NCBI GenBank assembly: GCA_951406725.2
Contig: OX597815.1
Span: 207,576,001 to 207,640,000 of the forward strand
Direction of reading: 5' to 3'
DNA from: Octopus vulgaris
Taxonomy: Eukaryota
DNA: 64,000 nt
In this document: piece by piece, positions 1,207 to 50,204 of the stretch
How the letters are laid out: the number at the start of each line of letters is the position of its first letter
How positions within the stretch are numbered: the stretch's first letter is position 1
The notes under the pieces: model-generated
The model's database searches: none
Seen by the model: only the letters and a program-made list of their open reading frames with translations
What the model was told of the DNA's origin: nothing
Position numbers and translations under genes: made by a program

Positions 1207-1253
<47 letters not shown>

Positions 1254-1259
<6 letters not shown>

Positions 1260-1463
1260 GAAAGAATGGAGTCGAACGAAGATTTTAACAAAATTGTTAA
1301 AATCTTCGTTCGACTCCATTCTTTCATTTATTCATATAAAAAACACACAAATTTCCACACAAGAACCCGGAGTTTCTACCCTTGACAGATCGCTTCAACC
1401 GTGTTTTCTGACGTGAATTTGCTACCCAGGTACCGGTTAAACGAATTTTCCATGCTAGGATAA

Positions 1464-4606: not shown

Positions 4607-5080
4607 CAGCTCACCATCTTAATCGTGAAATAATATCGATTGTATACAAGCTACTTATTGTTAGTACCGATACGTATAAAATATGGCAATGTATTAAAAA
4701 TAATCTGAATAAAATTCTAAGCTAGTTGTCAATGGTAGAAAAGAAAGAATAAAATAAAATAAAATGCAGAACAGAAATTCATTTATCTTTCATGAGTAAA
4801 ATTTCCTTTCTAGATGTCAATTATCTTGGCAGTGCTTCTAAATATTTGAAAAGGTGGTGGTCATTGAGAAATCTCAAGCAAAATGCCGAGAGACATTTAA
4901 TCACAACACGACATTTTGCGTTTAAAGTTCAAATCCCGCCGAGGTCTACTTTGTTTTTATCATTCCGAAGGTCGATTATATAAATACTAGTCATACACTG
5001 AGGTTCATTTTTATCGAGTACAGCTTCCACGAAATTTCAAACCTTGTATCTCTGTAAAAAAATTTAAAATCCCTAATATA

Positions 5081-5480
5081 GGCATAGGAGTGGCTGTGTG
5101 GTAAGTAGCTTGCTAACCAGCCACATGGTTCCGGGTTCAGTCCTACTGCATGGTACCTTGTCCAAGTGTCTTCTACTATAGCCTCGGGCCGACCAATGCC
5201 TTGTGAGTGGATTTGGTAGACGGAAACTGAAAGAAGCCCGTTGTATATATATGTATATAAAATATATGTATGTGTATGTGTATATGTCTGTGTTTGTCCC
5301 CCAACATCGCTTGACAACTGATGCTGGTGTGTTTACGTCCCCGTCACTTAGCGGTTCGGCAAAAGAGACTGATAGAATAAGTACTAGGCTTACAAAGAAT
5401 AGGTCCTGGGGTTGATTTGCTCGACTAAAAATTGGTGCTTCAGCATGGCCACAGTCGAATGACTGAAACAAGTAAAAGAG
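5081..5480 (+). mobile_element. tRNA-derived SINE family A (representative full copy)
   Basis: Head GGCATAGGAGTGGCTGTGTGGTAAG...GGTTCAGTCC, internal TA/TG microsatellite, GTAAAAGA tail. Other copies: 1028-1585+, 6001-6408-, 7257-7660+, 15172-15548-, 20790-21193-, 36143-36525+, 43017-43344- (headless), 44409-44818+, 53151-53521+, 57652-58072+, 58186-58606+, 59208-59610+, 60525-60930+, 61023-61399+, 63416-63820+. Confidence 0.9.
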
Positions 5481-8400
5481 TAATATAGTTATGGGCAAAC
5501 TGCAGCCCGCCAAGAATGACACTCTAAACGAAGAATTACCTGAATCTTTTTCTCTCTCTCTCTCCGCGGCTCGCTTGACGATGAGCCAGGTCTCATGCTG
5601 CCCTCTTCTGGTAAAACATTACCAATGCGTAAAGGGTAAAAATGAAGCAAAAAAATTTTTTTTTAAATTGCTATTTTCAAGATAAATAACTTTTGACAAA
5701 TCTGAACGATCAGCAAGAGTTATTTCCCTTGTCTTGATTTCTGTTGCTGTTCCAACTTGAATTTCTTAAATGTACTTCATTTATGCCAATTACTCGGGAA
5801 ATGAATTATAATTGTGCTGATGCCAGAATGGTAGGAAATCTTTATAATTCCGATTTGCTATATTTTCCACTATCCTCAAGCATACTGAACCCTTTTAGAT
5901 GAGGGAGTTGTGGATCGTTTCATGCCGTGCTGCACAGAATAAATTTTTAAATTTTATTTCTATTTTATCAACTATTGCAATCGAAGAGTTTTTAGCTATA
6001 CTCTTTTACTCTTTTACTTGTTTCAGTTATTTGACTGCGGCCATGCTGGAGCACCGCCTTTAATCGAGCAAATCAACCCCAGGACTTATTCTTTTGTAAG
6101 CCCAGTACTTATTCTATCGGTCTCTTTTGCCGAACCGCTAAGTGACGGGGACGTAAACACACCAGCATCGGTTGTCAAGCAATGCTAGGGAGACAAACAC
6201 AGACACGCAAACACATACATACATATAGATATATATACATATATACGACGGGCTTCTTTCAGTTTCCGTCTACCAAATCCACTCACAAGGCATTGGTCGG
6301 CCCGAAGCTATAGTAGAAGACACTTGCCGAAGGTGCCAGGCAGTGGGAATGAACCCAGAACCATGTGGTTGGTAAGCAAGCTACTTACCACACAGCCACT
6401 CCTGTGCCTATATTATTAACATATCTTATTTTTCTTTTTTAAAATATATTCTAATGAGAATTAGTATTTACTGCATGTCATGTACACCCAAATTGACATA
6501 ATTCAACAAAATAGTTTCAAACATCATATTCCTCTTCAAAAGACACGTTAGTATATAAAACTGCTTTCAGTAGTTAAGGACAATGAAATTTTGAGTGGAT
6601 ATACCTGATTTCGGATTTAAAGGGTTGAGAGAGAATACTATTGATTATAGGGAGATTTTACTGCATTTCTAGTATTTTGAACTCTGGTATCATTGATAAT
6701 TAATTAGTGGTTAACAATGATAACAGAACTGAAAGCTAAAGAGTTGGCGAAACAGAAGGTTTAAGGTCGGTAAAAGTTAATGACTGCTGGAAAACGAAAA
6801 TGGTTTGTTGGACAGCAAAATGGTGAAAATGTATCTTCCATCTTTTGATTTAACAAATTCGAATCAATCTGACAAAATCACCACTCACCTCACTCAAACA
6901 AAACAACAATAATACAAAAATGAATGACCAACAACAATAGCAACAATACTTTTATAAAACGTCTTTATGACAAAAAAACTGGCTTCATCTCTTAATATTT
7001 TCGATGGCTGTCAGACGGACTTGATATCAGTTTATGTTTGAGAATGAGAAATCACATCTGTCTTGATTCCAATCATTAATGAATTTTTCAAATTTCTTTT
7101 TACTGTTAATAATTGTTAGAACTTTTTCTTACAATTTCGTTAATGAATATTTTAAGGGAATTTTTTTTTAAAAGAAATGGTATATAATGGTATTTACTGG
7201 GTTTACTTTCCATGGACAGATACTTTGAAGATCGTTTTAAATTAAAAATATTTATAGGCACAGGAGTGGCTGTGTGGTAAGTAGCTTGCTTACCAACCAC
7301 ATGGTTCCGGGTTCAGTCCCACTGCATGGCACCTTAGGCAAGTGCCTTCAACTAAAGCCTCAGGCCCACCAAAGCCTTGTGAGTGGATTTGGTAGATGGA
7401 AACTGAAAGAAGCCTGTTGTATATATGTGTGTGTATATGTTTGTGAGTCTGTGTTTGTCCCCCCACCCACCCAACATCACTTGACAACCGATGATGGTAT
7501 GTTTGCATCCCTGTAACTTAACGGTTTGGCAAAAAATGACTGATAGAATAAGTACTAGGCTTACAAAGAATAAGTCCTGGGGTCGAGTTGCTCGACTAAA
7601 GTTGGTGCTCCAGCATGGCCGCAGTCAAAATGACTGAAACAAGTAAAAGAGTAAAAGAGTATAGGATATTTCCCTATAAAGGCAATGACTGAAAGCTACT
7701 TTCTTATTCATGTATTTCTGTATAATTATGGATTTGTTCAATCTTTATTCCCTTATTTTACTTTAAGTGTCATTAGTTTTGTATGCTTGCTATCAAGATG
7801 CATTCCATGTGTCTCTTTTTCAAGCATATCTATAAGGGTTTTATTTTTTTTTGTGGTGAGGAAGCAACTTTTAATCACTTTAAGGAAATTATAAAATATG
7901 TAATGCCTGTATTTATACATTTGTTAAAATGTAACTTGTGTTCAAACTTTATATAATTCTTCACAAGTCTTTCTTTTTTCTATACCATACATCTTTTTTC
8001 GCTTTCTCTTGCCTTTCTGTTTTACCTTCTTTTTTATAAATGGCATCATTCAAAACATTAGATTCTCTTCTTCTGCTTCTTTCTGTTGCCTACTGACCCT
8101 CATTGTTTATTTTCCTTCATATATATTTTTTAGTCACATGTTTTCGCTTGATTATGTGTTTTTTGTTTCCCTTTCGGCCTCCAATTTTACTTGTATTACT
8201 TGTTACTCTCCCCTTACATTCTTATGAAACTACTCCACCACCACCACTTCACCAATCTGCTGACCATATCCTCTCTTATGCTCATCTACCTTGACTTTTC
8301 TCTGGCATGCCATCACTAGCATTTTTCTTTATCTTCATTGTCACACTTACTATAACTCTCTCTATATTTGTGGTAGCCATATATCCCCTCTATATCAAGA

Positions 8401-12371: not shown

Positions 12372-12606
12372 GGCAGGTTCATTTTAGCACTCATTTCCAA
12401 AACCCACCTGTTTAATGTACATTTGCAGTGGTGTGTATCATCCTTTGTAAATATTTTTTCAGTATGATTAGACAAGCAGCTGCTAACAGAAGTTGCAGCG
12501 GCTTGTCTAATCATACTGAAAAAATATTTACAAAGGATGATACACACCACTGCAAATGCACATTAAACAGGTGGGTTTTGGAAATGAGTGTTAAAATGAA
12601 CCTGCC
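12372..12606. repeat. Near-perfect palindrome, ~115-bp arms, unclassified foldback element
   Basis: GGCAGGTTCATTTTAGCACTC...CTGCTAAC-AGAA-GTTGCAGC...GAGTGTTAAAATGAACCTGCC; explains mirror ORFs 12359..12550 and 12428..12727. Confidence 0.85.
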
Positions 12607-15554: not shown

Positions 15555-16117
15555 TATATTTATCAAAAGAAAAACAGGATGCAAAGGATTTAGCGGTACA
15601 TAAGTTTCTGGCTTTATTAGACAGTTTACATCAATGCATAATTGATGTAATATGTATGTCAATAGCCTTCTTCAGCCGCACACAATTACCACACCGAAGA
15701 CATGTATTACATTATAAGTTTGGGAAGCAAATCCTCATAGTCACATACAGCAGAGCGAGACACCAAAACAAAAACAAATCGTCCATACCGTCTTTCATCA
15801 AGTGAAAGACGGTATGGACACTTTGTTTTTGTTTTAGTGTCTCGCTCTGCTGTATGTGACTATGAGGATTTGCTTCCCAAACTTATAATGTAATACATGT
15901 CTTCGGTGTGGTAATTGTGTGCGGCTGAAGAAGGCTATTGACATACATATTACATTAATTATGCATTGATATAAACTGTCTAATAAAGCCAGAAACTTAT
16001 GTACCGCTAAATCCTTTGCATCCTGTTTTTCTTTTGATAAATATACCCTACCACCTACACCACTAACTGGCGTATACAGGTGCTTACTGTTATCAAGTAT
16101 TCACCCTGAATTTTTTT

Positions 16118-16120
<3 letters not shown>
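15555..16120. mobile_element. Palindromic PLE-like terminus: 243-bp arms, 5-nt loop, one-sided tail
   Basis: 15555-15797 and 15803-16045 are a near-perfect inverted repeat with a hammerhead in each arm; tail 16046-16120; TA tracts flank. Confidence 0.8.
15921..16007 (+). ncRNA. Type I hammerhead ribozyme motif, canonical C3-G8 core; mirror copy at 15593-15679 (-)
   Basis: GCGG-CUGAAGA-A-[GGCU AUU GACA...UGUC U AAU AA AGCC]-A-GAAAC-UUAU-GUA^CCGC. Stem I GCGG/CCGC, long stem II, minimal stem III, GUA triplet. Confidence 0.75.
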
Positions 16121-17998: not shown

Positions 17999-18042
<44 letters not shown>

Positions 18043-18045
<3 letters not shown>

Positions 18046-18262
18046 GGATCAAAACAGTTTGATTCAAATTCATTGGTACTCATGAGTTTCAAGCGCAATA
18101 CTAATTGTCAGCCATTCTGAATTTTAATTTTAAAATTCAAAATGGCTTACAGTAAGCATCATACTTGAAACTCGAGTACCAACGAATTTGAATCAAACTG
18201 TTTTGATCCATACATGTAATTCCCAATAAATTGGTTGAGTGCATTTCTTTTGTTTGTCCACT

Positions 18263-18266
<4 letters not shown>
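18043..18266. mobile_element. Palindromic PLE-like terminus with tail, in (TA)n
   Basis: Inverted repeat 18043-18212, tail 18213-18266, TA tracts on both sides, hammerhead remnants in both arms. Confidence 0.7.
18074..18114 (-). ncRNA. Decayed hammerhead motif; mirror copy at 18143-18181 (+)
   Basis: (-) UGG-CUGACAA-UUAG...CUU-GAAAC-UCAUGA-GUA^CCA; (+) UGG-CUUACAG-UAAG...CUU-GAAAC-UCGA-GUA^CCA. Both have palindromic stem III loops. Confidence 0.55.
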
Positions 18267-24350: not shown

Positions 24351-24820
24351 TATAAAGTCATAAATGTCAGAAATTGATGAAATTTTATTTTACAATAAGA
24401 AAATTCTAATATCATGACAAATTGTTTTGTGACTTAAAAGCATGTAAATAATTTATATTATTATATTTAATAATAAATAAATGAATTACAAGCCTGCATC
24501 ATTGCAAAATGCAAGAAGTCTTTCACAATAATGCAGAATTTAAGCTACATCCTTAGATGAAAGAAAGTCTTTGTTAAATACTAAACTCTCAGCATAACAT
24601 TATAAGACTTTCTTTTACAGAGGATGTATCTTAAATCTTGCATTATTTTGAAAGACTTTTTAACGTTGATGCAGACATGTAAGTAATTCATTTATTAGTA
24701 AATATACTTTAAATCATTTACATTGTTTTTAAGTTTCTTATGAAACAATTTGTGATATTTGAATTTTCTTATTAAATAAATTTTCATCAAACTATTTCTT
24801 TGTCATTTATGACTTATATA
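24351..24820. mobile_element. Old decayed palindrome (~230-bp arms) with tail on the left
   Basis: TATAAAGTCATAAATG / CATTTATGACTTATA ends; internal pairings such as AATAAGAAAATTC/GAATTTTCTTATT and GAAAGTCTT/AAGACTTTC. Confidence 0.6.
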
Positions 24821-27495: not shown

Positions 27496-27830
27496 TAACA
27501 CAAAAGCAATTGCAGCATGGCAGATGTTTGTAAGCTATTTAAGAACATACAAAAACCATTTAGTTTCACTTCAACATTTAAATTTAATTTGTGTCAAAAT
27601 ATTTTCACTGACAAAATTTCGTGCTGAGATGCAGCAGAAGGTTTTATCAGTGAACAGGTTGTGCTTTCAAAGTGACAAAAATATTTTTAACACAAATTGA
27701 ATTAAAATGTTGAAGTGAAACCAATGGTTTTTGTGTGTTCTTAAATGACTTACAAACATCTTCCATGCAGCAATTGTTTTTGTTACAGCACACGATATCA
27801 GATCAAGTCACTTGCTATGCAAGTACAGCT
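27496..27830. mobile_element. Inverted-repeat PLE-like element, same family as 49638-49828
   Basis: Arms GCAATTGCAGCATGGCAGATGTTTGTAAG... / ...CTTACAAACATCTTCCATGCAGCAATTG; tail after 27785. Confidence 0.65.
27645..27692 (+). ncRNA. Decayed second copy of the G3-C8 hammerhead-like family
   Basis: TATCA-GTGAACA-G-GTTGT-GCTTTCAAA-GTGAC-AAAAATATTTT-TAACA. Same family as 49718-49764 with CpG-type decay; the GTGAACA core is retained. Confidence 0.45.
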
Positions 27831-28439: not shown

Positions 28440-31400
28440 AAAAGTTAGACATCAATAAAAAATAAAGGAAAAACGAGAAAAGAACTGTTTTTAGTTTTTT
28501 TCCTTTTTTCTGTATCATTTGTAAACAAAACAACAGATAAATAAAGTGTAAAAGAAATCTGCTGAATATGTTTGTTGCAGTGATACAAGTTGTAACATAA
28601 CAAATATTTGAAAATAGTTCACAGACAGTACAGATATGATTGCAGCAACAGTGGCAGGTTTGGATTTATAAGCAACAATTTAAATAGATTTCAAAAAATG
28701 TTTTCTAGAAAATAAATTTTATCAACAAAGTTTAGAAAACTCCCTTCCCACTTTTCTGAAAAAAGATTAAATTGAAGTACATCTTTGCATATATATATAT
28801 ATGTATGAATATATATATATAACAAATGTCAAAGAAAAAATATGTCTAAGATATTTCTGAAACAATCTATAAGGTTACTATAAGGTTTTTGAAATAAGTA
28901 AAACAAAATTTAAGATAAGAAGGATAATTTTGATAAAAATAACTTGGATTAAAATAAAATCCCTGACAAAGTTTGTAGAAAAGCTATATAGCTTGATACA
29001 ACCTCTGAAATTTGGCTACTTGGAAGAAAATTTGCAAAATGTATGGTGGTTAATGCTTTTGTATTGTGTTCATTAATGTGTGAACTATGTGTGTAAAATC
29101 AAATAACATGCATATATAGAAATATTTAAAAAACTTGTTTTTAAGGAATTCATAATTAAAATTTGTGTGAATGATTATTATAATTAGAAAGTAAAAGACC
29201 CCTAATGATCTGAATTCTTCTCATCTAATATATTTCAACTAATCATTTTCTGTTCTATATTTAAGAGATGAAGAATTATGCAAATTATTTACAATTGACG
29301 GATATTTGTCCTCATCTTGATGAGGACAAATATCCGTCAATTGTAAATAATGTCATCATTTTCTTCCTTAATTTGAGTTTTGAATCTTTGTTATTCTATT
29401 CTATTTATAATTAATTAACTTACTCTCATTCATGACCCTTAACTTTTTATAACCATCAGCTGACATTTTCTGTTACATTTTTTTTTTCTGCAATTTTACC
29501 CTGTAACCATTTTTTGTTGCCTTTCTCTCACATTATTTTCTATGTCATATAATTTTATGCTTCCCACATGAATAGCAATTAATTTGTTAAACAAACAACC
29601 TATTATTATTAGATAAAAGTTCAATAGAAGATATAGAAAAAAGTACTATTTTACAACAAGGAAATAGTGTCATAGAATATATAGATTTTTTTTTTTAAAT
29701 GACATAGAATTAATTTTAATTCCCAGTCTGGAATGGTGTTGAAGTCCCTTAGTTATACTTGCAGACCTTATCTGTTATCTAAATTGTCACTTAGGGGATC
29801 TCTGAAAATCCTTAGGTATTCATTGTCTTTTATATATTTAAGTAATCTCTTCTTATCTCCATTATCCCCACCTCCCTTATCTTAACAGTTAATCTTAGTT
29901 TAACAGAAGATCAGCTATAATTTAAATTTCCATTTCTGTTTTTTGTTTGTTTGTTTTCTTACTAAACTTGCAGCAAATGTATAAAAAAAAAAATTTTTAA
30001 TTCTCTCAAATAACCAGAATAAGTTAAAACTTCAAAAAAGTATTTAATTAAGGAATACAAATAAGAGGCAAAGAAAACTGTTTGTCTGTGCCAGCATAAA
30101 GAAAAAGAAAACAAACTTAATAAAATTCATTAAAATAAGATATAAATCTTTTAATGAATGAAAATTATGAATTATCATTATTATTATTATTACATAGCAC
30201 TAGGCTAACAAAATCAACTTATTTCTCTACTGGTTTCAAAATATTGAGAAATATTTTGATTTAAATAATTTAAAAGTAAGATTTGCTGCAAAAAAGCTAC
30301 GTAAGTCAGAGATCGCCACCTAAAATAATGATCATGATGAATTTTGTTATAGGAATTTTTGAATATTACTAATTAAAACTGGAAATTCTGAACTATAGAT
30401 TTACAAATGAGAAATAACTTGAACAAGGAAATTTCAAGAATAAGCTGCCAATTTGGCAGTTTTCTACATTATCATCTATTTCCTTTGAAAATTCTTCTTA
30501 AACATTTTGTTGAAAATATGTATAATGTAATTCCATTTTATAATAAAATTGAACACAATAAAATGGAAGTAAACTACTAATGGCCCCAATCCACGACCCC
30601 CACTTAGATTCTTGGTCAGAGCTATTTTATTTTACTTACATTCTTTGGAAAACATTGAAAATCACAAAGATTTCATGTGTATAAACATGACTCGAGACTG
30701 TAATTTGGAATGGAATCTACTTTGCCAGCTTAATTTGCCTTTCACTTATCACATGAAGAGGGGGTCTTCTGTTATCCCCTGCTACCCAGTGACTTACTGA
30801 AACTTGTAGCCTTAAGAGATTCAGAAGACTTCTCACCTGTGTAAGCTGCAAACTTGAATAAACAAGTCTAAATATTTTGTTTGAAATGAAAACAATATGA
30901 AGTTAAAGAGTGAGAATGCTTAACTTTTCTACACATTAATTTAACTTATTAGATAAATAAGCTATAGAAAAATAACAGAATGGTAGAATGCAGTCAGAAT
31001 TTATTTCATCTGTTGTATCTATGTACCATTAATAGACTGGCCTGAGATTCTCAAAAGATAAAAAATATATTCGAGATAAGGGTTAAAACTCATGCTCTGG
31101 GTAGGAAGACTACACTTGAATATATTGGCAGGGGAAAAGAACTATACTAAGGATTTAGCTAAAGAAAATAGATTCAATTTTGAGATTTGCAAAAATGGGA
31201 AGCTTCTTGATAAAAATACAATAGTTGGCTGTCAGGATTTGTTTAAATAAAATAAAGTAATTGTAATCCTGTAATCTCTTTGAAAGAATAGATTTTAAGA
31301 AAAGTGTGTGTGTGTGACATATTTTTCAATTTAAGCAGGTATATTAGGTTAGCAAAGAATGTTGGAAAACAAATTAATGTGCAATCAACAGCAAGAGATT

Positions 31401-33292: not shown

Positions 33293-33409
33293 TCAAGGGT
33301 CTATAATAGGTACTGACAATCGTGATTGTTTAGGTTCGATTTCCAGTGATGCTCTATAAGCTTCTTCATCTGTCATAAGTCTGCTGGGATCCAATAAATA
33401 GTTGGTTAC
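33293..33409 (-). CDS. RasGRF: RasGRF-like last coding exon with stop codon
   Basis: CAG| acceptor. VTNYLLDPSRLMTDEEAYRASLEIEPKQSRLSVPIIDP*, TGA at 33293-33295; the SL-IEPK motif ends CDC25 domains. Confidence 0.95.
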   Translation of the reverse strand, partial: VTNYLLDPSRLMTDEEAYRASLEIEPKQSRLSVPIIDP

Positions 33410-36731: not shown

Positions 36732-36947
36732 GGAGGTATTAAAAAAAGAAAAAAAAAAAAATTAAAAATATCCTATACACCCCTCCTGCACAAATTTTTC
36801 CAAGTTTTGACACTTTAGAGACATCAGAGCTTATGAATCTAAAATGCCAAGATACATAAGATTTGATGTCTCTAAAGTGTCAAAAATTGGATAAATTTGT
36901 GCAGGAGGGGTGTAAAGGTTATTTAAAATTTTTTTTTAATAATTCCT
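36732..36947. repeat. Inverted-repeat (MITE-like foldback) element
   Basis: Core TACACCCCTCCTGCACAAATTT...GACACTTTAGAGACATCA / TGATGTCTCTAAAGTGTC...AAATTTGTGCAGGAGGGGTGTA. Confidence 0.7.
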
Positions 36948-37499: not shown

Positions 37500-38370
37500 A
37501 CATGGGCCGTGACTGCTGAGGATATGCGTAAGCTCGCAAGAAATGAAGCCAGTATGCTCCGTTGGATGTGTAATGTCAGTGTTCATACCCGACAGAGTGT
37601 AAGTGCCTTGAGAGAAAAGTTGGACCTAAGAAGCATCAGATGTGGTGTGCAAGAGAAGCGTCTACGCTAGTATGGACACGTAGTAAGAATGGATGAAGAT
37701 AGTTGTGTGAAAAAGTGCCACACCCTAGCGGTTGAGGAAACCTGTGGTAAAGGTAGACCCAGGAAAACCTGGGACGAGGTGGTGAAGAACGACCATCGCG
37801 CTTTAGGTCTCACCGAGGAAATGACCAGAGACCGAGACCTTTGGAAGTATGCTGTGCGCGAGAAGACCCGGCAGGACACGTGAGGCCATAACCCATGGCC
37901 CCTACCTGGGATGTAGTCAGTCCACCTGTGCATACCTTCCTTCTTGGGACACATAACTCTAGTTGTGAAGACCTGTTGAGGCAAGTGAAAATCAAAATCA
38001 AATCAAATCAAAACCAATGAACATCAATGGAATTTGCATTTTTGTGGCACATAAGTGAACCATCTGAACATGGCCGTAGCCAGTAACGCATCGACTGGCC
38101 TCAGTGCTGTGGGTACGTAACAAACACCATCCGATCGTGGCCGTTCGCCAGCCTCGTCTGGCCGTTCGCCAGCCTCGTCTGGCACCTGTGTCGGTGGTAC
38201 ATAAAAAGCACCCACTACACTCACGGAGTGGTTGGCGTTAGGAAGGGCATCCAGCTGTAGAAACACTGCCAGATCTGACTGGGCCTGGTGCAGCCTTCGG
38301 GCTTCCCAGACCCCTGTTGAACCGTCCAACCCATGCTAGCATGGAAAGCGGACGTTAAACGATGATGATA
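37500..38370 (+). mobile_element. RTE-clade LINE 3' end running into its 3' UTR and (GAT)n tail (family C)
   Basis: NEASMLRWMCNV...LREKLDLRSI...GRPRKTWDEVV, then the family-C body ending GACGTTAAACGATGATGAT. Same junction on the minus strand at ~14385-15130. Confidence 0.8.
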
Positions 38371-38632
38371 TGTATATATGTATGTATATATGTGTGTATA
38401 TATGTGTGTATATATGTGTGTATATATATATGTATATATATGTATATATATATGTGTGTATATTTGTATATGTATGTATGTATGTGTATGTACGTGTATG
38501 TATGTGTGTGTATGTGTGTGTAGGTATGTATGTATGTGTGTGTGTATGTATGTGTGTGTATGTATGTGTGTGTATGTGCGTGCGTGTGTATGTATGTGCA
38601 TGCATGTGTGTGTGTGTATGTGTGTGTATGTA

Positions 38633-38664
<32 letters not shown>

Positions 38665-39782
38665 CTGTTGTGTCTGGGGAGGGTAATTTTCTTTTTCTGC
38701 CTTATAATTTAACAAACTCACTGGTAATTTCCACTCATTTCTTACTTATTTTCCTAAAATTTTCGTTGCGTCTTGCAGCCTTTTCAATAGTCTTGACTGT
38801 CCGTTTTTTACACTGCGTTCCTTTTTGTTTGTTTGTGCGCATGTGTGTGGGTCAGTGTGTGTGTGTGTGTGCCTGCATGTGTATGCATATGTATATATGT
38901 GTGTGCATCTATATGTATGTATTCTGCATGTCCGTGTTTATGTGTTTTCTGTGTATGTGTGTGAGCGTGTATTTGTATATGTATGCACCTGTCTCCTTGT
39001 GTGTGAGCATGTGTGTTTTGCAACTATGTGCCATGTTTGTATGTATGGATGTGCATCTCTATATGTGTGGACCCGTGTCTCCATATGTGTCTTTATGTGG
39101 GGTAAAGTGTGTGTGTATATATGGTCATGTGTGTCAGTCTCCATTTGTGTGTGTGTGCTTGTCTGTTCTTATAACCTATGTACCTGTCCGTCTATATAAG
39201 AACAGACAAGCACACATACACAAATGGAGACTGACACACATGACCATATATACACACACACTTTACTCCACACAAGGACACATATTGAGACACGGGTCCA
39301 CACATATAGAAATGCACATCCATACATACAAACTTGCAAAACACACACAGACATGCACACACAAGGAGACAGAGGTGCATACATATACAAACACACGCTC
39401 ATACACACACATACATACATAGAAAATATACAAATACGGACATGCATGCACATGAATATGCAGAATACATACAAATGTACACACATACATATATACATAC
39501 ACATATATACATACATATGTATGTGCATGCATGTATGCATAGGCACACACACACATGCACACAAACAAACAAAAAGGAACGCAGTGTAAATAATGGACAG
39601 AGTCAAAACTATTGAAAAGGTTGCAAGACAGAACGAAAATTTTAGGAAAATAAAAATAAGAAAAAATAGTGGAAATTTTACCGGTGAGTGTGTTAAATTA
39701 TAAGGCACAAAAGGAAAATGACTCTCCCCAGACATAACAGAATATGCTTCAACACACACACTCATATAAAGAATCTTGCAAA
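38665..39782. mobile_element. Large inverted-repeat PLE-like element (~510/545-bp arms, ~21-nt spacer, tail) in the last RasGRF intron
   Basis: 38665-39173 pairs with 39195-39740; tail TTCAACACACACACTCATATAAAGAATCTTGCA; TA/CA tracts flank. Confidence 0.75.
38754..38790 (-). ncRNA. Hammerhead-like motif with U3-A8 core; mirror copy at 39609-39645 (+)
   Basis: CUA-UUGAAAA-G-GCUGC-AAGAC-GCAAC-GAAAAUUU^UAG. The two arms give a consensus stem II GUUGC/GCAAC; stem III is loop-less palindromic AAUU. Confidence 0.55.
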
Positions 39783-39823
39783 TATACACACACATATATA
39801 TATATACACACACATATATATAT

Positions 39824-39854
<31 letters not shown>

Positions 39855-39886
39855 TATATATACACACACATCACACACACACACAT

Positions 39887-39917
<31 letters not shown>

Positions 39918-39962
39918 CACACACATATATATATATACACACACACATATATATATACACAC

Positions 39963-40017
<55 letters not shown>

Positions 40018-40034
40018 CACACACACATACACAC

Positions 40035-40083
<49 letters not shown>

Positions 40084-40114
40084 CACACACATATATATAT
40101 ATATATACACACAC

Positions 40115-40197
<83 letters not shown>

Positions 40198-40978
40198 ACA
40201 CATATTGCATGCATTAAGAACAACGGCCAAGAGAAAATTATTGAAGTTTCTTTTTTCATGCACCATTAGTAATTCTTGTCTCCTTACTTCCAATAAGAGG
40301 AGTTTGAAATTTAGGTAATTTTTTTGAGCTTCAGTTTAGAATAACTTTTTTTTATAAAAATGATAAAAAAAAACCATTGCTGTTTTCTACACATTGATAC
40401 TACAAGGGCTGAACTGGTAATTTTATTGCCAAGGTGACATATTCTATTATTACACACATGTGAGTGAGAACACTGAGATATTTTTGGTATCTAACATATG
40501 TCAGATACTGCGAGCGCTGCTTCTGATTGGTCAATCCATGGTGATGACCTGAGTTCACGGTAATGGCACTACTTTTGTCATTCATAAGTTACAACTAAAC
40601 TTCATTCATTACTTTCAGGAGCAGGTAGAATGTAGCCATGTAATTAAACAAACATACTATCCTTTTTATACCAGATATCACTTAAAGTCATAGACACATA
40701 AAATATAAACATTTCTGGTTGTAATTCAATTTTTTGTTGCCAAAAAAATCACAACATATTATTAAAGTTATTGAAGATTCAATCTGTGTTATATATTTCT
40801 TGAACGTGAACTTGAATGTTAACAAAATGTTAAACAGTTATCAGTCATTTCACCTGAAAACTTAGCGCTATAAAGTCGGACTATCTTCCTGCGGCATGAC
40901 ATCTTTTACAAACTTATCAGCCTTTACTCTATTGTATTATGAAGAAAAGTTCTAAATTCGATGGTGCTAATTGTTTAA

Positions 40979-41307: not shown

Positions 41308-41376
41308 TCTTGGATGATGTTCAATTCTGTATGGTGTTTGCTGAAATACTTGTATTTCTCTAATGACGTGAGCAAT
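41308..41376 (-). CDS. RasGRF: RasGRF-like penultimate coding exon
   Basis: CAG| acceptor, |GTAAG donor, 69 nt. IAHVIREIQVFQQTPYRIEHHPR. Confidence 0.95.
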
Positions 41377-42450: not shown

Positions 42451-43916
42451 CCAATCCAAAGACGAAGGTAAACCATCCAGATACAATTATGAAAGACAAG
42501 AATGAAAATCTCAGTACTCTGATAAATGTTTTCATCTTGTCTTTCCAAAACATTACCTGGAAAGAATTGAAGAAATTAACAATGTATAAAGGTCTTGTAA
42601 TATAAGCAGAATGTAGAGTGTGAAAGTGAAAACTACTAATAATAAGTGGAGTACTAGGCATGAAGAAAATTTAAAAAATATATATAAAAACAATATCAGG
42701 ACTCACAAATATAAACAGGAAAAAAACTCAATCCCACTGCTCTATGTATGCACAACCCACAGCTCGCAGAGTACACTTTCTGCATAACACACCATTCTAC
42801 AGAATACACCTGTATAACACACTCTACACAATCATCAATCAATAGAAAGTATAACTCATACAAAACATTAAGAATTCACTCCCCAATAAAAAAAAAAATT
42901 TTTAAAGCAACCCACACAGCACAAACTTTACAGAATTAACATCCAATTAAAATATCAACACTTATTCTTAATTATCCCCACTTAATTGTGGATGTTCTGT
43001 TGGAACGAACAATACTCTCTTTACTCTGATTCTTTACTCTTTTACTTGTTTCAGTCATTTGACTGCGGCCATGCTGGAGTGCTGCCTTTATAGTCGAGCA
43101 AATCGACACCAGAGCTTATTCTTTGTAAGCCTAGTACTTATTCTATCAGTCTCTTTTGCCGAACCGCTAAGGTGTGGGGACGTAGACACACCAGCATCGG
43201 TTGTCAAGCAATGCTGGGAAGGGGGGTGACAAACAGCTACACAAACATATACACACACATATATATATGACGGGCTTCTTCCAGTTTCTGCCTACTAAAT
43301 CCACTCAAAAGGCTTTGGTTGGCCTGGGGCTATACTAGAAGACAAAAGGCGGTGAGCTGGCAGACACGTTAACACGCCGGGCGAAATGCTTAGCGGTATA
43401 TCATCTGTCATTACGTTCTGAGTTCAAATTCCGCACCTGTGGTAAATACCATGAGAAAAACTTCTCATATTGGCTTTTGGTGCAAAATGCACTCACGTTT
43501 ACTGCAGAATAGTTTGTTCTAACAGAACATCCATATTAAAGGGGAGATAAATATTACCTCTTGGTATTAATATTCCTTCTACTGCTAATACAAACTTATT
43601 CTTATATAATTGATATACAATAGAATACTTCACATACCACTATCAGCTTACAGAGCTTGCAAAATAGTAATATAACACAAACTACACAGCAGTACATTCT
43701 CTACACAACAAAGAAACAAACAACAACACTAAAACAGTACCAAAACAAAAAAAAGACAGGGAATAAATTTCAAAACAAAGCGAAACAAGGTGTAGAATAA
43801 CATAGACAATTCTGCTGTCCCAAAATCAATATCGCAGAAACCCAATAGCTTTGTTTATCCGTGTAATGAAACTATTCTCCCAAACAAGTATCATTTTAAT
43901 TTTCACTTTGACTTAC

Positions 43917-44034
43917 CATACGCATTTTCGAAAAGTTCACAAGCTTTTCATCTGTGAAATTTGGTGTACCTTCTTCAATAAAAGATAAATCAGTCAAATA
44001 CATGCCTAGATATGGAATGCAGGGTGGATCACAT
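43917..44034 (-). CDS. RasGRF: RasGRF-like exon (CDC25 helical hairpin)
   Basis: CAG| acceptor, |GTAAGT donor, 118 nt, phase 2/0. [39 protein letters not shown] is the hallmark RasGEF motif. Confidence 0.97.
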
Positions 44035-44563
44035 CTGAAAGATAAAGTAACAAGAAAACATTAGAGATGGGAGTAGGATACGTATAAAATGAAATAGAAT
44101 CACTACATTATTTAACAAACTATTTAGGTTGGTCTGTGTGAATAGAATATATTGTGCAAGACAAATACATCCCTAATCGACTGAATAAAATATGTATGTA
44201 TGCATGCACATCATCTTCGCTGTATATACAACTACACATCATCATCATCATTTAACGTCCGCTTTCCAAGCTAGCGTGGGTTGGATGGTTCAACTGGGGT
44301 CTGGGGAGCCCGAAGGCTGCACCAGGCCAGTCAGATCTGGCAGTGTTTCTACAGCTGGATGCCCTTCCTAACGCCAACCACTCCGAGAGTATTTTTAAAC
44401 ATATAGTCACAGGAGTGGTTGTGTGGTAAGTAGCTTGCTTACCAACCACATGGTTCAGTCCCACTGCGTGGCATCTTGGGCAAGTGTCTTCTGCTAGAGC
44501 CCCGGGCCGACCAATGCCTTGTGAGTGGATTTGGTAGACGGAAACTGAAGGAAGCCCATCGTG

Positions 44564-44595
<32 letters not shown>

Positions 44596-45913
44596 CGTGT
44601 GTGTGTGTGTATATGTTTGTGTGTCTGTGTTTGTCCCCCCAACATCACTTGTCAACCGATGGCGGTGTTTTTATGTCCACATAACCTAGCAGTTCGGCAA
44701 AAGAGACCGAAAGAATAAGTACTAGGCTTACAAAGAATAAGTCCTGGGGTCGATTTGCTCAACTAAAGGCAGTGCTCCAGCATGGCCGCAGTCAAATGAC
44801 TGAAACGAGTAAAAGAGTATCCAAGGGAAATAACCCATTCGCTCCTGAAAGTGATCCTTATATATAACCAATGGAAATAACCCATTCATGTTCGGAAATT
44901 ATTTCGTATAAATCAAATTCAGTATGCTTATTTCTTAGTATTTGAACTATTCGTGTTATTTTTGCAATTTATCCAGTACAACAATACTTAAACAAGTAAA
45001 TAGTATTTTCATAAACAATAGACCCACTTCTTTTGGTTAGTGACTTATTCACGAATATACCAACTCTAGTGCCGCTGTGGGTAATATTCTCTGTGAATGC
45101 ACAAAAGCTTTTTTCAGAGTTATTTACTTTGAATTGTTATTATCTCATATCTGATTAGCCTGTTATTACATAACATGCTTCCCGATTTTAGTATACATAC
45201 CTTTATTTCCTCCTAAGTTCTATACAATCTAGGCACATATTAAAACCCTTTTGGGGGCTACTTTATTTAAATTCTTACTATCGGGTAATTAATTTCATGT
45301 TATTACATAACTGACTTCACAATTTGGGTATTTATAACTTATTGGGAATTCCTAAAAGCAAGATCCTGTGTAAGACAGTATGGTATTTTCTGAAAATGCA
45401 CAAAAGCCATTTTAAGGGCTACATACTTTGTATTGATGTTACTGGATTAGTGAAACAATTATGAGAATGGAACCAAGGGATAAGCCCCGCTTTCCTGGGA
45501 ATTACCAGGTACCTCAGCATATGTGTGTGCGCGTATGTATGCATATATATATATTTTAAATTAGAGATAAAACCACTATTAGGCAAATCAAACAATGAAA
45601 AACATAAATCAAAACATAGAAATAAAATTAATTAATATAATATACAAAATATATAAAATATAAAAAGTCAAAATTTAAATTATCTAAATTTAAATCCTTA
45701 AAGAATCCTTAAAATCCTTAAAGTTAAAATAAAAAAAAAATTTTTTAAACTATTAATTTATACCTATAAATTTTTATATATATATGTATATTATTATTTT
45801 TATTTTTAATTTTTTTAATTATATATTTATTGATTTATTTATTATTTTATTTTTATCTTTTAAATATATATAACTATCAAAAAGTATTAAAAAGTTTAAT
45901 ATAAGATAATAAG

Positions 45914-46732: not shown

Positions 46733-47140
46733 ATATTGTTATATTTCGGAATGGTTATTTTGCCAGTTTAGCCAATAAAAACACACACATTATATATTTG
46801 GTGTTATTTTGCTTTAGTGTTATTTATTTTTTACATTAATCTTAATCTTATTTTGGCCAGCATTCTTTCGTCACACTGGCTGACTGTTAGTAAGGAGAGA
46901 CACAAATAAGAAAGAAGAAAACAAATGACCATTGATGCGGTCACAGGAGTGTGACGAAAGAACTCTGGCCGAAATAAGATTAAGATTAAGGTAAAAAATA
47001 AATAACACTAAAGCAAAATAACACCAAATATATAGTGCGTGTGTTTTTATTGGCTAAACTGGCAAAATGACCATTCCGAAATATAACAATATCTGTTTCA
47101 ACACACGACTTCACATAAAAAATCTTGCACAACAAATATA
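46733..47140. mobile_element. Inverted-repeat PLE-like element (~145-bp arms, ~70-nt spacer, tail)
   Basis: 46733-46877 pairs with 46948-47092; tail TTCAACACACGACTTCACATAAAAAATCTTGCA; TA tracts flank. Confidence 0.75.
46927..46970 (+). ncRNA. Hammerhead-like motif with degenerate core
   Basis: GACCA-UUGAUGC-G-GUCAC-AGGAGU-GUGAC-GAAAG-AA-CUC^UGGCC. Perfect 5-bp stem II and CUC triplet; the core deviates at positions 3 and 9. Confidence 0.55.
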
Positions 47141-48249
47141 TAAACGTATATATATATATAAAATTTCATTATCATCAAGTTTGTTTTTTTTCATATTTTC
47201 AGACTGCCAGTTTTAAATCCCTTTTTGGTAAACAAACCAGGCTGGAAATTTGTAATAAACAGAAGACCGAAAATCAAGTCATGATGGACACCATTCTGCA
47301 CATAAGATTCTTATCTAGGTTGGTTCTCACACCATTTTACCATTTTTCACAGATGTTCATCATCTGCTCCATTTTGTTTTGGCTTGGCTCTTACGACTAG
47401 ATGTCTCCCCTATCATTAAATGCATCACAGCATGGAATGGATGCATTTTATTGTGGCTATTGACACATGAGAAGCTGCTTATAGAAGGGCTAAAGGGTTC
47501 CCCCCCCATCTTGTCAATGTTCTAATTCAGTTGCTGGTTTTCAAAATGTGTTGTCGGTTACTGCTGCTGATGTTCAAATCACAGTTTATTTCTAGTGTAG
47601 GACAGTAATAATTGGGGTGACACTGTATAATCATCATCCCCATCATCATTTAACGTCCGTTTTCCGTGCTAGCATGGGTTGGACAGTTCGACCGGAGTCT
47701 GGGAAACCAGGAGGCTGCACCAGGCTCCAGTCCGATCTTGGCAGAGTTTCTACAGCTGGATGCCCTTCCTAACGCCAACCACTTCGAGAGTGTAGTGGGT
47801 GCTTTTTACGTGCCACTGGCACAGGTGCCAGGGGAGGCTGGCAGCGGCCATGGTCGGTTGGTGCTTTTTATTGTGCCACCAGCACAGAAGCCAGTCAAGG
47901 CGGTGCTGGCATTGGCCATGTCCGGATGGTGCTTTTTCTATCCAGTAAAATGTTTCTTAGGCAAGTTCATCAATGTTGAAATAAGAATGAGAGGTTATGA
48001 ATAAAAACCAATTGTATATTTGGCATGTGAATTTTATTCTATGATAGATAAAAATTTGTATTGTAAAATCTAAGATCATGCAACTGTAATGTGAAGGAAA
48101 AAGATACAATCTATTTAAAAGAAAGTAAGCTATAAAGAAATCTAATTCAGCATAGACATGACATTAAAAAAAAATGTAATTGCATAAAAAGCCATTATAT
48201 TGATCGATGTGAATAATTTTAAGCATTATAGACTTCAACATGAACTTAC

Positions 48250-48329
48250 CTATGAAGTGCGTCTCTCATGTTCTTGAACCTTCCTTCAGAGGAAACTAAT
48301 GTTTGGAGCTTATCAATCATTTGTCGTGT
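48250..48329 (-). CDS. RasGRF: RasGRF-like exon (CDC25 domain)
   Basis: TAG| acceptor, |GTAAGT donor, 80 nt, phase 0/2. TRQMIDKLQTLVSSEGRFKNMRDALH(R). Confidence 0.95.
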
Positions 48330-48719
48330 CTAAATACAAAAAGAAAGACAATTTAAAAGATTAACAATGAATCATAACAAAAGCATTTACATAGTTATTA
48401 AATTCTACAAGACTAAAAATGCTTTCTTTGAATTTAGTAATAAAGTAAGTACTGTAGGCAAATACGGTAATTTACTGTGACTCCAATACTCTATTTGTAT
48501 TCGGTTTTGTATTTCCTCCTATTCATCATCAACATCATCATCATCGTTTAACATCCGCTTTCCATGCTAGCATGGGTTGGACGATTTGACTGAGGTCTGG
48601 AGAACCAGATGGCTGCACCAGACTCCATTCTGCTCTGGCAGTTTCTACAGCTGGATGCCCTTCCTAACGCCAACCACTTCGAGAGTGTAGTGGGTGCCAG
48701 TCAGGTGGTACAGGCAACG

Positions 48720-48995
48720 GCCACCCCCACTATAGACTTGGTCACCTAGGTAGCAGAAGCTATCAACAACTTCTAGTTTCTCCCCCTGGCATGTGATGGA
48801 ATCAGTTTTCTGAGCATCTGCAGTGTTTATTGCCCCTGTGCATCTGCTACTCACAAATGCTATCTTCCTGGTTAACCTTCCTTTGATGCTGCTGCACCTC
48901 TTATGCATCCATAGCTTACACTGGGTACATCTTATAGTGTTTCTACCTGCACCTTTTCTACAGATCAAGCAGGGCCATCTACCTGAAGGGGTTTA
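48720..48995 (-). pseudogene. RTE-clade LINE internal fragment
   Basis: CRKGAGRNTIRCTQCKLWMHKRCSSI...EKLEVVDSFCYLGD in ORF 48645..48968. Confidence 0.75.
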
Positions 48996-49637
48996 TTTGC
49001 AATAAATTGCTGATACTTTTGCAATACACAAAATACTTTAATGATATTTTAAAAATACAATTCCTAATAATATTTATCACAAGATTTTTAAAACTTTGAA
49101 TGGGTATAAGGGCCCAGGAGAATAAAATAAGAATCACAGGGGTCCAAAGGCAAAAATGGTTGGGAACCACTGATATAGAAGACACCCATGGGAAATTTTC
49201 TAATATTTAAAATTATTAACCAATGAATAATTTTCACAAAAGGTCTAATGTCTGGTAATTATGTGTTAGAGGATACTTTGCTGAGGAGGACTAATAAAAC
49301 TGAAACATACTCATAGTTGTCATTGTAATTACTAAAGATCAGATTCATCTTTCATTGCATACATCTTCATTTAATTTTTTAATCAGTCTAGATTTCAAAA
49401 TTCCCTTTTTCTTGCTGCCCTTGGTAAAAACTCTCATTAACTTCAATTTTTTTCCTTCTCGCTTGCTTTGAACACACAACATTTAGTATGTTAGCCTGCA
49501 GTTAAACTACGTATGTCACCCTTGGTAAGTATGCTAATGTCACTGAATATGGTACTTGCTGTTATAACCTTACAATTTAAAATCCATACCTAACTTCTCT
49601 TTCAACAACTCATTAAATACAAGTTTATAATAGACAA

Positions 49638-49828
49638 TTGCAGCGTGGAAGGTGTTTATAAGCCATTTAAGAAACACACAAAAACCGTTAGATTCACTGC
49701 AACATTTAAATTTAATTTGCCAAAATATTTTCGCCACTTTGAGACCGCGACCTGTTCACTGACATGCAGTGAATCTAACGGTTTTTTAGTGTTTCTTAAA
49801 TGGCTTATAAACACCTTCCATGCTGCAA
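49638..49828. mobile_element. Inverted-repeat PLE-like element (~64-bp arms) with the G3-C8 hammerhead-like motif in the spacer
   Basis: TTGCAGCGTGGAAGGTGTTTATAAGCCATTTAAGAAACAC / GTGTTTCTTAAATGGCTTATAAACACCTTCCATGCTGCAA. Confidence 0.7.
49718..49764 (-). ncRNA. Hammerhead-like motif with G3-C8 swapped core
   Basis: Minus strand: UGUCA-GUGAACA-G-GUCGC-GGUCUCAAA-GUGGC-GAAAAUAUUU^UGGCA. Stems I and II are fully paired with G-U wobbles; stem III is palindromic AAAUAUUU. Confidence 0.6.
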
Positions 49829-50204
49829 AAGTTCAATTAGATATCATGAATCAAGTTAATGCAACCCCTTGCAAAAATGCAATTCTATAAATGTTTTCTT
49901 GGTGCTGTATAAAACACAAGCCTGCCAGTGGCATGTAAAAAGCACCCACTACACTAACGGAGTCGTTGGCGTTAGGAAGGGCATCCAGCTGTAGAAACAC
50001 TGCCAGATCAAGATTGGAGCCTGGTGCCGCCTCCTGGCTTCCCAGACCCCGGTCGAACTGTCCAACCCATGCTAGCATGGAAAAGGGATGTTAAACGATG
50101 ATGATGATAGTGTCAAAAAGTTTCATTTAGGGGTCCAGCTTTAAAGTTAAAGAAGAGATTTAATGTTTAGTAACGCTTGGATAAGTGAAATAACCATTTC
50201 TTAC

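What the first reader, a model, noticed from the sequence alone, without database searches (positions are those of the whole stretch)
38665..39782. 1.1-kb intronic foldback with U3-A8 hammerheads in both arms
Seen: ~510/545-bp inverted arms with a 21-nt spacer; each arm holds CUA-UUGAAAA-G-stem II-GAAAAUUU-UAG, with a loop-less AAUU stem III that can only form as a dimer. The minus-strand copy (38754-38790) is sense to RasGRF. Inference: the pre-mRNA can form ~500 bp of imperfect dsRNA that would sequester the ribozyme and be a strong ADAR substrate; extensive A-to-I editing is established for coleoid neural transcripts.
Basis: partly seen in the sequence, partly recalled or inferred. Interest (0 to 1): 0.7.

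Follow-up and report, generated by a model that had tools for sequence, protein, structure and literature searches.

The report
Head-to-head Penelope retroelement remnant, octopus intron
The 1.1-kb mirror-image repeat in an intron of a RasGRF-like gene is real and is most likely the decayed, head-to-head end of a Penelope-like jumping gene, an arrangement already described in other animals; its RNA is predicted to fold into a long double helix that would bury the small ribozyme-like motif and could be edited, which was not tested.

Summary
Arms are 38665-39173 (509 nt) and 39195-39740 (546 nt), with a 21-nt spacer and 91% identity, in the last coding intron of a RasGRF-like gene (minus strand). 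Each arm carries the UUGAAAA…GAAAAUUU motif. The two motifs are on opposite strands, so the pre-mRNA holds only one, with no dimer partner in the window; folding buries 39 of its 41 nt. The best reading is a head-to-head inverted pLTR insertion of a Penelope-like element (PLE). It has microsatellite flanks, a 42-nt tail on one arm only, a hammerhead-like motif 98 nt from the shared end, and a 22-codon ORF-start-like remnant running into the tail. A second element in another intron (46735-47138) has a homologous end and the same layout; two more such foldbacks lie in the window. Head-to-head pLTRs, one-sided tails, opposite-strand hammerhead pairs and the U3-A8 core are all in print. No reverse-transcriptase ORF could be linked. 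Editing, cleavage and family-wide U3-A8 conservation are untested. The differences between the arms show no sign of selection for pairing. Verdict: an apparently uncatalogued member of a known kind, probably neutral. The open question is how much octopus hyper-editing such foldbacks supply.

The parts
38665..39173 (-). Left (short) arm, element-sense on the minus strand, ending against a (TA)n run; lacks the tail
39174..39194 (.). 21-nt spacer at the head-to-head junction, bordered by TATA on both sides
39195..39740 (+). Right (long) arm, element-sense on the plus strand; inner part is degenerate CA-rich sequence
39741..39782 (+). 42-nt one-sided extension ('tail'), AC-rich, homologous to the tail of the element at 46735-47138; exact end uncertain by a few bases
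   Evidence: (E 1.8e-12 within window)
38754..38790 (-). Minimal type I hammerhead-like motif, U3-A8 core, extra G between 9 and 10.1, stem I 3 bp, stem II 4 of 5 pairs, palindromic AAUU, predicted site UUU; the only copy sense to the host gene
39609..39645 (+). Second copy of the motif, antisense to the host gene, stem II 3 of 5 pairs
39718..39783 (+). ATG and 22 codons (8 within the arm, the rest in the tail), likely remnant of the element's ORF start
   Evidence: 15 of 22 residues identical to the second element; P 0.02 in simulation; same motif in other records
38369..38664 (.). (TA)n/(TG)n microsatellite flank, likely insertion target
39783..40198 (.). (TA)n/(CA)n microsatellite flank
41308..41376 (-). 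Upstream coding exon of the RasGRF-like host gene (AG before, GTAAGA after)
33293..33409 (-). Downstream, stop-containing coding exon of the host gene
46735..47138 (.). Comparator: second head-to-head element in another intron of the same gene. Arms 46735-46877 and 46948-47090 (95%), 70-nt spacer, one-sided tail, degenerate hammerhead at 46932(+) with a perfect 6-bp stem II

Best explanation
This is most likely the decayed insertion product of a Penelope-like retroelement: two 5'-truncated copies of its ribozyme-bearing end joined head to head in a TA/CA microsatellite, inside an intron where the transcript is predicted to fold them into one long duplex that would silence the ribozyme-like motif. 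Shown directly: the arms, the spacer, the one-sided tail, the flanks, the motif 98 nt from the shared end, and the same layout with a homologous end in a second element. Inferred from published PLE biology: the element's protein, supplied in trans, cut AT-rich DNA and reverse-transcribed from sites just inside the ORF start (hence the two ends 42 nt apart), and the nascent strand self-primed at the TATA-bordered junction to give the mirror arm. Predicted for the RNA: the antisense arm is transcribed first, so the duplex would zip outward from the spacer and capture the sense motif as it emerges. The duplex is a likely passive ADAR substrate with no selected role.
For: Layout: head-to-head arms, 42-nt tail on one side, microsatellite flanks. 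The published PLE unit has an inverted 5'-truncated copy, a 30-40 bp tail at one end and (TA)n targets (PMC8557442). It is most often head-to-head, and in one rotifer element the pLTR holds 12 codons of the ORF and 22 with the tail (PMC3846280); here 8 and about 22. In an anole PLE the tail lies between two RT start sites in AC-rich sequence inside the ORF start (PMC11167929). Motif: U3-A8, the extra nucleotide between 9 and 10.1, G10.1-C11.1, palindromic 15.2-16.2 and opposite-strand pairs 100-700 bp apart are all described for PLE hammerheads (PMC4209133). U at the cleavage position occurs in Hydra-clade PLE hammerheads (supplement rows). Internal replicate: the element at 46735-47138 has a homologous end, a different hammerhead-like motif 125 nt before its short end, and 15 of 22 identical residues (P 0.02). 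Foldbacks at 15555-16119 (intact C3-G8 motif in both arms) and 18040-18266 (decayed motif) repeat the layout. Dispersal: the peptide motif occurs in one Octopus bimaculoides gene model and 7 short ORFs from unnamed assemblies, which diverge after the same point. Silencing: 39 of 41 nt paired, 61 kcal/mol to free; a homodimer scores 0.0 kcal/mol against -3.0 for each monomer. In vitro, PLE minimal hammerheads are inactive singly and weak as dimers or need the element's protein. No selection for pairing: on the pre-mRNA strand the transitions give 21 A-C mismatches and 11 G-U pairs.
Against: No RT or GIY-YIG ORF was linked to this end. Three homologue searches and one HMM search found only short or unrelated continuations; the one named hit continues into sequence with no Pfam match above cut-off. 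The peptide motifs are absent from the Craig 2021 supplement, and the octopus Hydra-1 element there has a different hammerhead and N-terminus. The coding signal is modest (codon-position skew P 0.07), and 3 of 9 HMM hits were chance matches to bacterial W-rich repeat proteins. The U3-A8 motif alone is not beyond chance under a loose descriptor and has no Rfam match. The arms are longer than the roughly 200-nt pLTRs, and the origin of the CA-rich inner part is unexplained. No target-site duplication can be read in the microsatellites. No genome was held, so no DNA copies of this family beyond the two arms were seen.
Confidence: 0.83

Rival explanations
1. A non-autonomous DNA transposon (MITE or foldback element) with long terminal inverted repeats and a TA target; the hammerhead-like motif is chance.
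For: Long inverted arms with TA-rich flanks. Hammerhead-free foldbacks that could be MITEs exist in the window (27500-27783, 36753-36937, 49638-49828). The loose descriptor finds about one U3-A8 hit per shuffled window. The named protein hit continues into a Cys-containing segment that recalls DNA-transposon accessory proteins (resemblance recalled, not tested).
Against: The ends are unequal, with a tail on one side only, in 4 of 4 hammerhead-bearing foldbacks. The second element's mirror arm stops inside its hammerhead stem II, as a truncation would. Different hammerhead-like motifs sit at a comparable position before a homologous end.
Confidence: 0.06
2. A solo PLE fragment was inserted first and was later duplicated in inverted form by a host DNA repair or replication template switch.
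For: The arms differ by 8.6%, with less difference near the centre (95.6% over the inner 136 nt), which an independent later event or gene conversion could give.
Against: Four elements of different sequence and arm divergence (2%, 5%, 9%, 13%) share the same layout. The mirror arm here stops at the microsatellite, 42 nt short of the tail end, and copies no host flank.
Confidence: 0.06
3. The foldback has been co-opted: editing or opening of the duplex regulates splicing or ribozyme cleavage of the RasGRF-like pre-mRNA in neurons.
For: It is the longest of the 11 local foldbacks delineated in the window, 449 bp predicted, 1.5 kb from the upstream donor. Octopus shows very high hyper-editing. 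The core letters are identical in both arms, though that is expected by chance about a quarter of the time at this divergence (my arithmetic).
Against: 14 gaps and 42 substitutions with no excess of G-U over A-C on the transcribed strand. The sense motif has a broken stem II pair, a 3-bp stem I and no partner. Editing would hit the core adenosines (established hammerhead knowledge). No complementarity to exons was seen.
Confidence: 0.04
4. Assembly or library fold-back artefact.
For: Chimeric fold-back reads give head-to-head palindromes (general knowledge).
Against: An artefact would give identical arms; these differ by 42 substitutions and 14 gaps and one has a tail.
Confidence: 0.01

Closest known systems
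Inverted-pLTR insertions of endonuclease-positive Penelope-like elements with a one-sided tail (Arkhipova et al. 2013, PMC3846280; Craig et al. 2021, PMC8557442; passages read)
   Same: Head-to-head arms with a short junction, tail on one arm, ORF start running from arm into tail, AT-rich simple-repeat target.
   Different: No ORF body is present, the arms are over 500 nt with a CA-rich inner part, and the parent clade (Penelope/Poseidon, Neptune, Nematis, Hydra) could not be assigned.
Minimal hammerheads of metazoan PLEs, including the U3-A8 variant of Schistosoma Cercyon elements (Cervera and De la Pena 2014, PMC4209133; parts 1-2 of 4 read)
   Same: Type I, no stem III loop, palindromic 15.2-16.2, extra nucleotide before G10.1, U3-A8 core, opposite-strand pairs within 100-700 bp (here 825 nt between the two cores).
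   Different: Stem I is 3 bp (4-5 there), stem II is 5 bp and broken in each arm, and the host is a cephalopod.
Hydra-1_Obim and Naiad_Obim/Ovul, octopus PLE families (PMC8557442 supplement)
   Same: Same host group and (TA)n preference; Hydra-1_Obim has a 3' hammerhead with U at the cleavage position.
   Different: Hydra-1_Obim has a C3-G8 core, a paired stem III and a different N-terminus. Naiads lack canonical hammerheads. Neither matches this end in the parts seen.
Palindromic repeats as ADAR hyper-editing substrates, such as the frog Harbinger repeat (Porath et al. 2017, PMC5625713; passages)
   Same: A self-complementary repeat that needs no neighbouring copy to form dsRNA.
   Different: Editing was shown there and is untested here; that study left octopus out of its repeat-class analysis.
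Non-LTR retrozymes (bioRxiv 10.64898/2026.07.22.740005, part 1 of 5 read)
   Same: Non-coding, PLE-related, type I hammerhead.
   Different: Retrozymes are direct tandem arrays with two same-strand ribozymes; this is inverted with one per strand.

Membership tests
Penelope-like element insertion | RT plus GIY-YIG ORF of PLE type in the element or its parent | tested here: inconclusive
   None in the foldback. Searches with the 22-26 residue end found no long relative, but short queries make this weak and no genome was held.
Penelope-like element insertion | 5'-truncated copy in inverted, head-to-head orientation | tested here: met
   orientation taken from the hammerhead motif and the ORF-start remnant
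Penelope-like element insertion | 30-40 bp tail on one end only | tested here: met
   42 nt here, 48 nt and homologous in the second element
Penelope-like element insertion | ORF start inside the pLTR, extended by the tail | tested here: inconclusive
   15 of 22 identity, P 0.02; codon skew P 0.07; ATG intact in 2 of 4 arms
Penelope-like element insertion | AT-rich or (TA)n target | tested here: met
Penelope-like element insertion | Many dispersed copies ending at the same two points | tested here: inconclusive
   Second element in the window plus 8 protein-level records diverging after the same point; no DNA copies available
PLE minimal hammerhead | Core 3-9 with a 3-8 pair, extra nucleotide, G10.1-C11.1, GAAA, palindromic 15.2-16.2 | tested here: met
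   U3-A8 form
PLE minimal hammerhead | Covarying stems across family copies | not tested
   Only two arms seen; their stem II defects are at different positions, which fits decay from a 5-bp stem but is not covariation
PLE minimal hammerhead | Self-cleavage as a dimer or with the element's protein | not testable with these tools
   Needs an assay; nearest-neighbour energies disfavour the dimer
Non-LTR retrozyme | Direct tandem units with two same-strand hammerheads | tested here: not met
   One motif per strand
MITE / foldback DNA transposon | Equal terminal inverted repeats at both ends with a target duplication | tested here: not met
   One end extends 42 nt beyond the inverted repeat; duplication unreadable in microsatellite
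ADAR hyper-edited intronic duplex | A-to-G clusters in RNA against DNA | not tested
   No read-level data were obtained

The most novel reading that the evidence does not exclude
Head-to-head Penelope insertions are a principal, unrecognised source of the octopus's exceptional dsRNA load and hyper-editing, the cephalopod counterpart of inverted Alus or the frog's palindromic Harbinger. Each insertion brings its own antisense, which buries its ribozyme and makes it tolerable in introns. In this window 4 hammerhead-bearing foldbacks and a fifth with a similar layout hold about 2.1 kb of arms (3.3%). They account for 1003 of 2968 nt covered by close (2 kb or less), 85%-identical inverted matches, and 768 of 1270 nt at gaps of 300 nt or less. 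Dispersed inverted pairs supply more at longer range (2671 of 4176 nt within 10 kb).
Probability: 0.2. Interest if true: 0.6.

Novelty: new member of a known kind. Interest (0 to 1): 0.25.

Why it matters
For this locus, little: it is probably a neutral retroelement remnant. It adds a cephalopod example of the U3-A8 hammerhead and a short conserved end that could be used to pull out an octopus PLE family I did not find in print (searches; Repbase and Dfam could not be searched). The wider use is a testable question. Octopus has among the highest hyper-editing and dsRNA-forming potential measured, the passages I read do not name the repeats responsible, and this window suggests PLE foldbacks as a dense candidate class.

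Tried and rejected
No whole genome is held. Rfam: 0 matches at gathering level in the window; no hammerhead at E up to 10 in the outer right arm or in the 15.8-16.1 kb element. Run search: no RNA holder listed. Of 24 runs listed, 16 under five organism codes held 22-46% of 110 sampled words. None was laid and CA-rich words may inflate the shares, so this is not used as evidence. No read-level data were obtained, so editing, expression and family-wide U3-A8 conservation stay open. Motif scans: 1 hit in metagenome contigs, a chance match inside bacterial coding sequence (L001); 0 in viral contigs; 0 in prokaryote genomes. Profile searches for a full-length parent ORF: 2 of 29, 4 of 726 and 3 of 7 candidates passed, none with an RT or endonuclease domain. 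The HMM search gave 9 hits, 6 short related ORFs and 3 chance bacterial proteins that I dropped. Craig 2021 supplement: five peptide motifs and one tail motif 0 hits, one unrelated hit for a second tail motif, and 2 of 8 TTGAAAAG places seen, both unrelated. A pLTR intron at GTGAGT (39685) was considered and dropped: the second element has no matching acceptor. An edited-template origin for the arm differences was dropped: A/G changes are 6 against 7. The C/T skew of 15 against 4 (P 0.02) falls partly in poorly aligned CA-rich sequence and is unexplained. Lunse et al. 2017 on dimer cleavage could not be read and is known only through a review passage. Earlier scan notes had nothing on this genome or sequence.

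Full report
Observation. The arms are 38665-39173 (509 nt) and 39195-39740 (546 nt) with a 21-nt spacer. They share 445 matches, 42 substitutions and 14 gap openings, 91.4% at aligned columns: 95.6% over the inner 136 nt and 82% in the most CA-rich block. With low complexity masked the outer part still matches at E 3e-45. The motif TTGAAAAG-N-GAAAATTT occurs twice in the window, at 38787(-) and 39612(+), and in 0 of 100 shuffles; a structural descriptor gave the same 2 hits and 0 in 100 block shuffles. That descriptor was written after seeing the motif and the two hits are one element. A looser descriptor allowing a long stem II yields 0.97 U3-A8 hits per shuffled window, the right-arm copy failed its stem II threshold, and Rfam has no match. 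The motif alone therefore does not prove a ribozyme; its context carries the argument.

Host gene. Minus-strand exons of a RasGEF-domain protein lie near 60.3, 50.3, 48.3, 44.0, 41.3 and 33.4 kb. One exon matches Pfam RasGEF at E 1.7e-19 and PDB 2IJE at E 3e-20, far above SOS1; that 2IJE is RasGRF1 is recalled. Splice signals give an intron 41307-33410, and the next exon carries the stop. The foldback is 1.5 kb from the donor. The host is taken to be an octopus from the O. bimaculoides hit below; the species was not determined.

What it is. The right arm runs 42 nt past the inverted repeat (39741-39782) before a TA/CA microsatellite; the left arm ends on (TA)n. Searching the window with the outer right arm found a homologous end at 47000-47129 (E 1.8e-12). 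That end belongs to a second head-to-head element in another intron: arms 46735-46877 and 46948-47090, 95% identical, 70-nt spacer, 48-nt one-sided tail, short TA runs on both sides. It has a different, degenerate hammerhead-like motif at 46932(+) with a perfect 6-bp stem II; its core is two changes from the canonical one, and its mirror arm stops inside that stem. The two ends translate from ATGs at 39718 and 47067 into 22-residue peptides with 15 identities and differences at codon positions 4/4/10. In simulation, that identity in the best of six frames has P 0.02 and the positional skew P 0.07; the ATG is intact in 2 of 4 arms. Profiles of this peptide found an O. bimaculoides gene model and 7 short ORFs from unnamed assemblies, all diverging after the same point, as dispersed copies with a common end would. 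Three of the 9 HMM hits were chance bacterial proteins and were dropped. No long RT-bearing relative was found. Of 11 local foldbacks delineated, two more have the arm-arm-tail-(TA)n layout with hammerhead features: 15555-16119, 98% arms, intact C3-G8 motif with a long stem II in both arms (shuffles 0.26 per window), and 18040-18266, 87% arms, decayed motif.

Comparison with print. Arkhipova et al. 2013 (PMC3846280, passages) describe inverted pLTRs, most often head to head and best explained by self-priming, with an optional 31-bp tail; in one element the pLTR holds 12 codons of the ORF and 22 with the tail. Here it is 8 and about 22. Craig et al. 2021 (PMC8557442; passages, section 11 and supplement searches) give the same unit, a 30-40 bp tail at one end and (TA)n targets, and list octopus Naiad and Hydra families that do not match this end in the parts seen. 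The anole study (PMC11167929; passages and part of the main text) places the tail between two RT start sites in AC-rich sequence inside the ORF and finds the hammerhead inactive without the element's protein. Cervera and De la Pena 2014 (PMC4209133, parts 1-2 of 4) report U3-A8 in about 1,300 Schistosoma hits, the extra nucleotide before G10.1, palindromic 15.2-16.2, opposite-strand pairs 100-700 bp apart, no cleavage by single motifs and low cleavage by dimers; their supplementary alignments were not seen and may hold mollusc examples. PLEs are a recognised, partly recent component of the O. vulgaris genome (PMC13282606, passages). Every element of the finding's anatomy is therefore in print. 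I found no paper on this family or linking PLE foldbacks to cephalopod editing, but repeat libraries could not be searched. Three earlier scan notes on other genomes reach the same reading; they are unchecked and not counted as support.

How it likely works. Birth (inferred): the element's protein cut AT-rich DNA, reverse-transcribed from sites just inside the ORF start, stopped after about 550 nt and self-primed at the TATA-bordered junction. Two templates joined at their 5' ends is an alternative that I cannot exclude. RNA (predicted): the pre-mRNA strand folds to 449 inter-arm pairs with uninterrupted helices of 49, 47, 35 and 35 bp. Of the sense motif's 41 nt, 39 pair with the other arm, and holding it open costs 61 kcal/mol. 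The antisense arm is transcribed first, so capture would be co-transcriptional. Isolated, each motif does fold into its stems I and II, but the homodimer scores 0.0 kcal/mol against -3.0 per monomer, tertiary contacts not counted, and there is no second sense copy in the window. Cleavage of the pre-mRNA is thus unlikely. Editing is plausible: octopus has one of the two highest hyper-editing rates and dsRNA potentials in a survey (PMC5625713, passages; also bioRxiv 2020.01.19.911685, passages), and the finding's stretch holds 336 adenosines on this strand. It was not tested, because no read-level data were obtained. Against a selected role, transitions between the arms give 21 A-C mismatches and 11 G-U pairs on the transcribed strand (P 0.11, no excess of pairing-preserving change), and arm divergence across the four elements runs from 2% to 13%, as neutral decay would give.

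Novel reading. PLE-like foldbacks hold about 3.3% of the window. They account for 768 of 1270 nt of 85%-identical inverted matches at gaps up to 300 nt, 1003 of 2968 up to 2 kb and 1003 of 4176 up to 10 kb; masking hides this element's middle, so these are underestimates. They are a dense class of local hairpins, but dispersed inverted pairs cover more at longer range, and one window cannot stand for a genome. I put 0.2 on their being a principal editing substrate.

Verdict. Observation confirmed, interpretation partly supported. A new member of a known kind (confidence 0.83 for the PLE reading, with the parent ORF not shown). Interest 0.25.

Noticed in passing
window 46735-47138: Second head-to-head PLE-like element in another RasGRF-like intron, homologous end and tail, degenerate hammerhead (U3, G8, C9) with a perfect 6-bp stem II.
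   Followed up: yes
window 15555-16119: Young foldback (98% arms, 7-nt spacer, 74-nt one-sided tail, TA flanks) with an intact C3-G8 hammerhead motif in both arms, stem II of about 60 nt, GUA site; missed by Rfam. It resembles the 'half core' cases noted for Naiads and is the better candidate for an active family.
   Followed up: partly
window 18040-18266: Older foldback (87% arms, 51-nt one-sided tail, long TA flanks) with decayed hammerhead core and palindromic stem III.
   Followed up: partly
window 1250-1345: Very short foldback (42-nt identical arms) against a (TA)n run; possibly a PLE end too short to include a hammerhead.
   Followed up: no
window 24938-24870 (minus) and 24351-24820: Intact C3-G8 hammerhead-like motif with a long stem II next to a 470-nt AT-rich foldback; relation unclear, and chance is not excluded (0.26 per shuffled window).
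   Followed up: no
window 12372-12606, 27500-27783, 29261-29371, 36753-36937, 49638-49828: Further foldbacks without a hammerhead; 27500 and 49638 look like one family with 63-72 nt spacers, possibly MITEs; two lie in RasGRF-like introns.
   Followed up: no
window 39195-39740 against 38665-39173: Substitution skew in element-sense orientation: left C against right T 15 times, the reverse 4 times (P 0.02); unexplained.
   Followed up: partly
P0001 (UniRef A0A0L8I3J7): This O. bimaculoides gene model starts with the repeat's 26-residue end and continues into unrelated sequence; probably a chimeric gene prediction.
   Followed up: partly
window 43035-44819, 47641-50103, 5074-7664: Inverted pairs of abundant dispersed repeats within a few kb, several inside the RasGRF-like gene, also able to form dsRNA.
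   Followed up: partly
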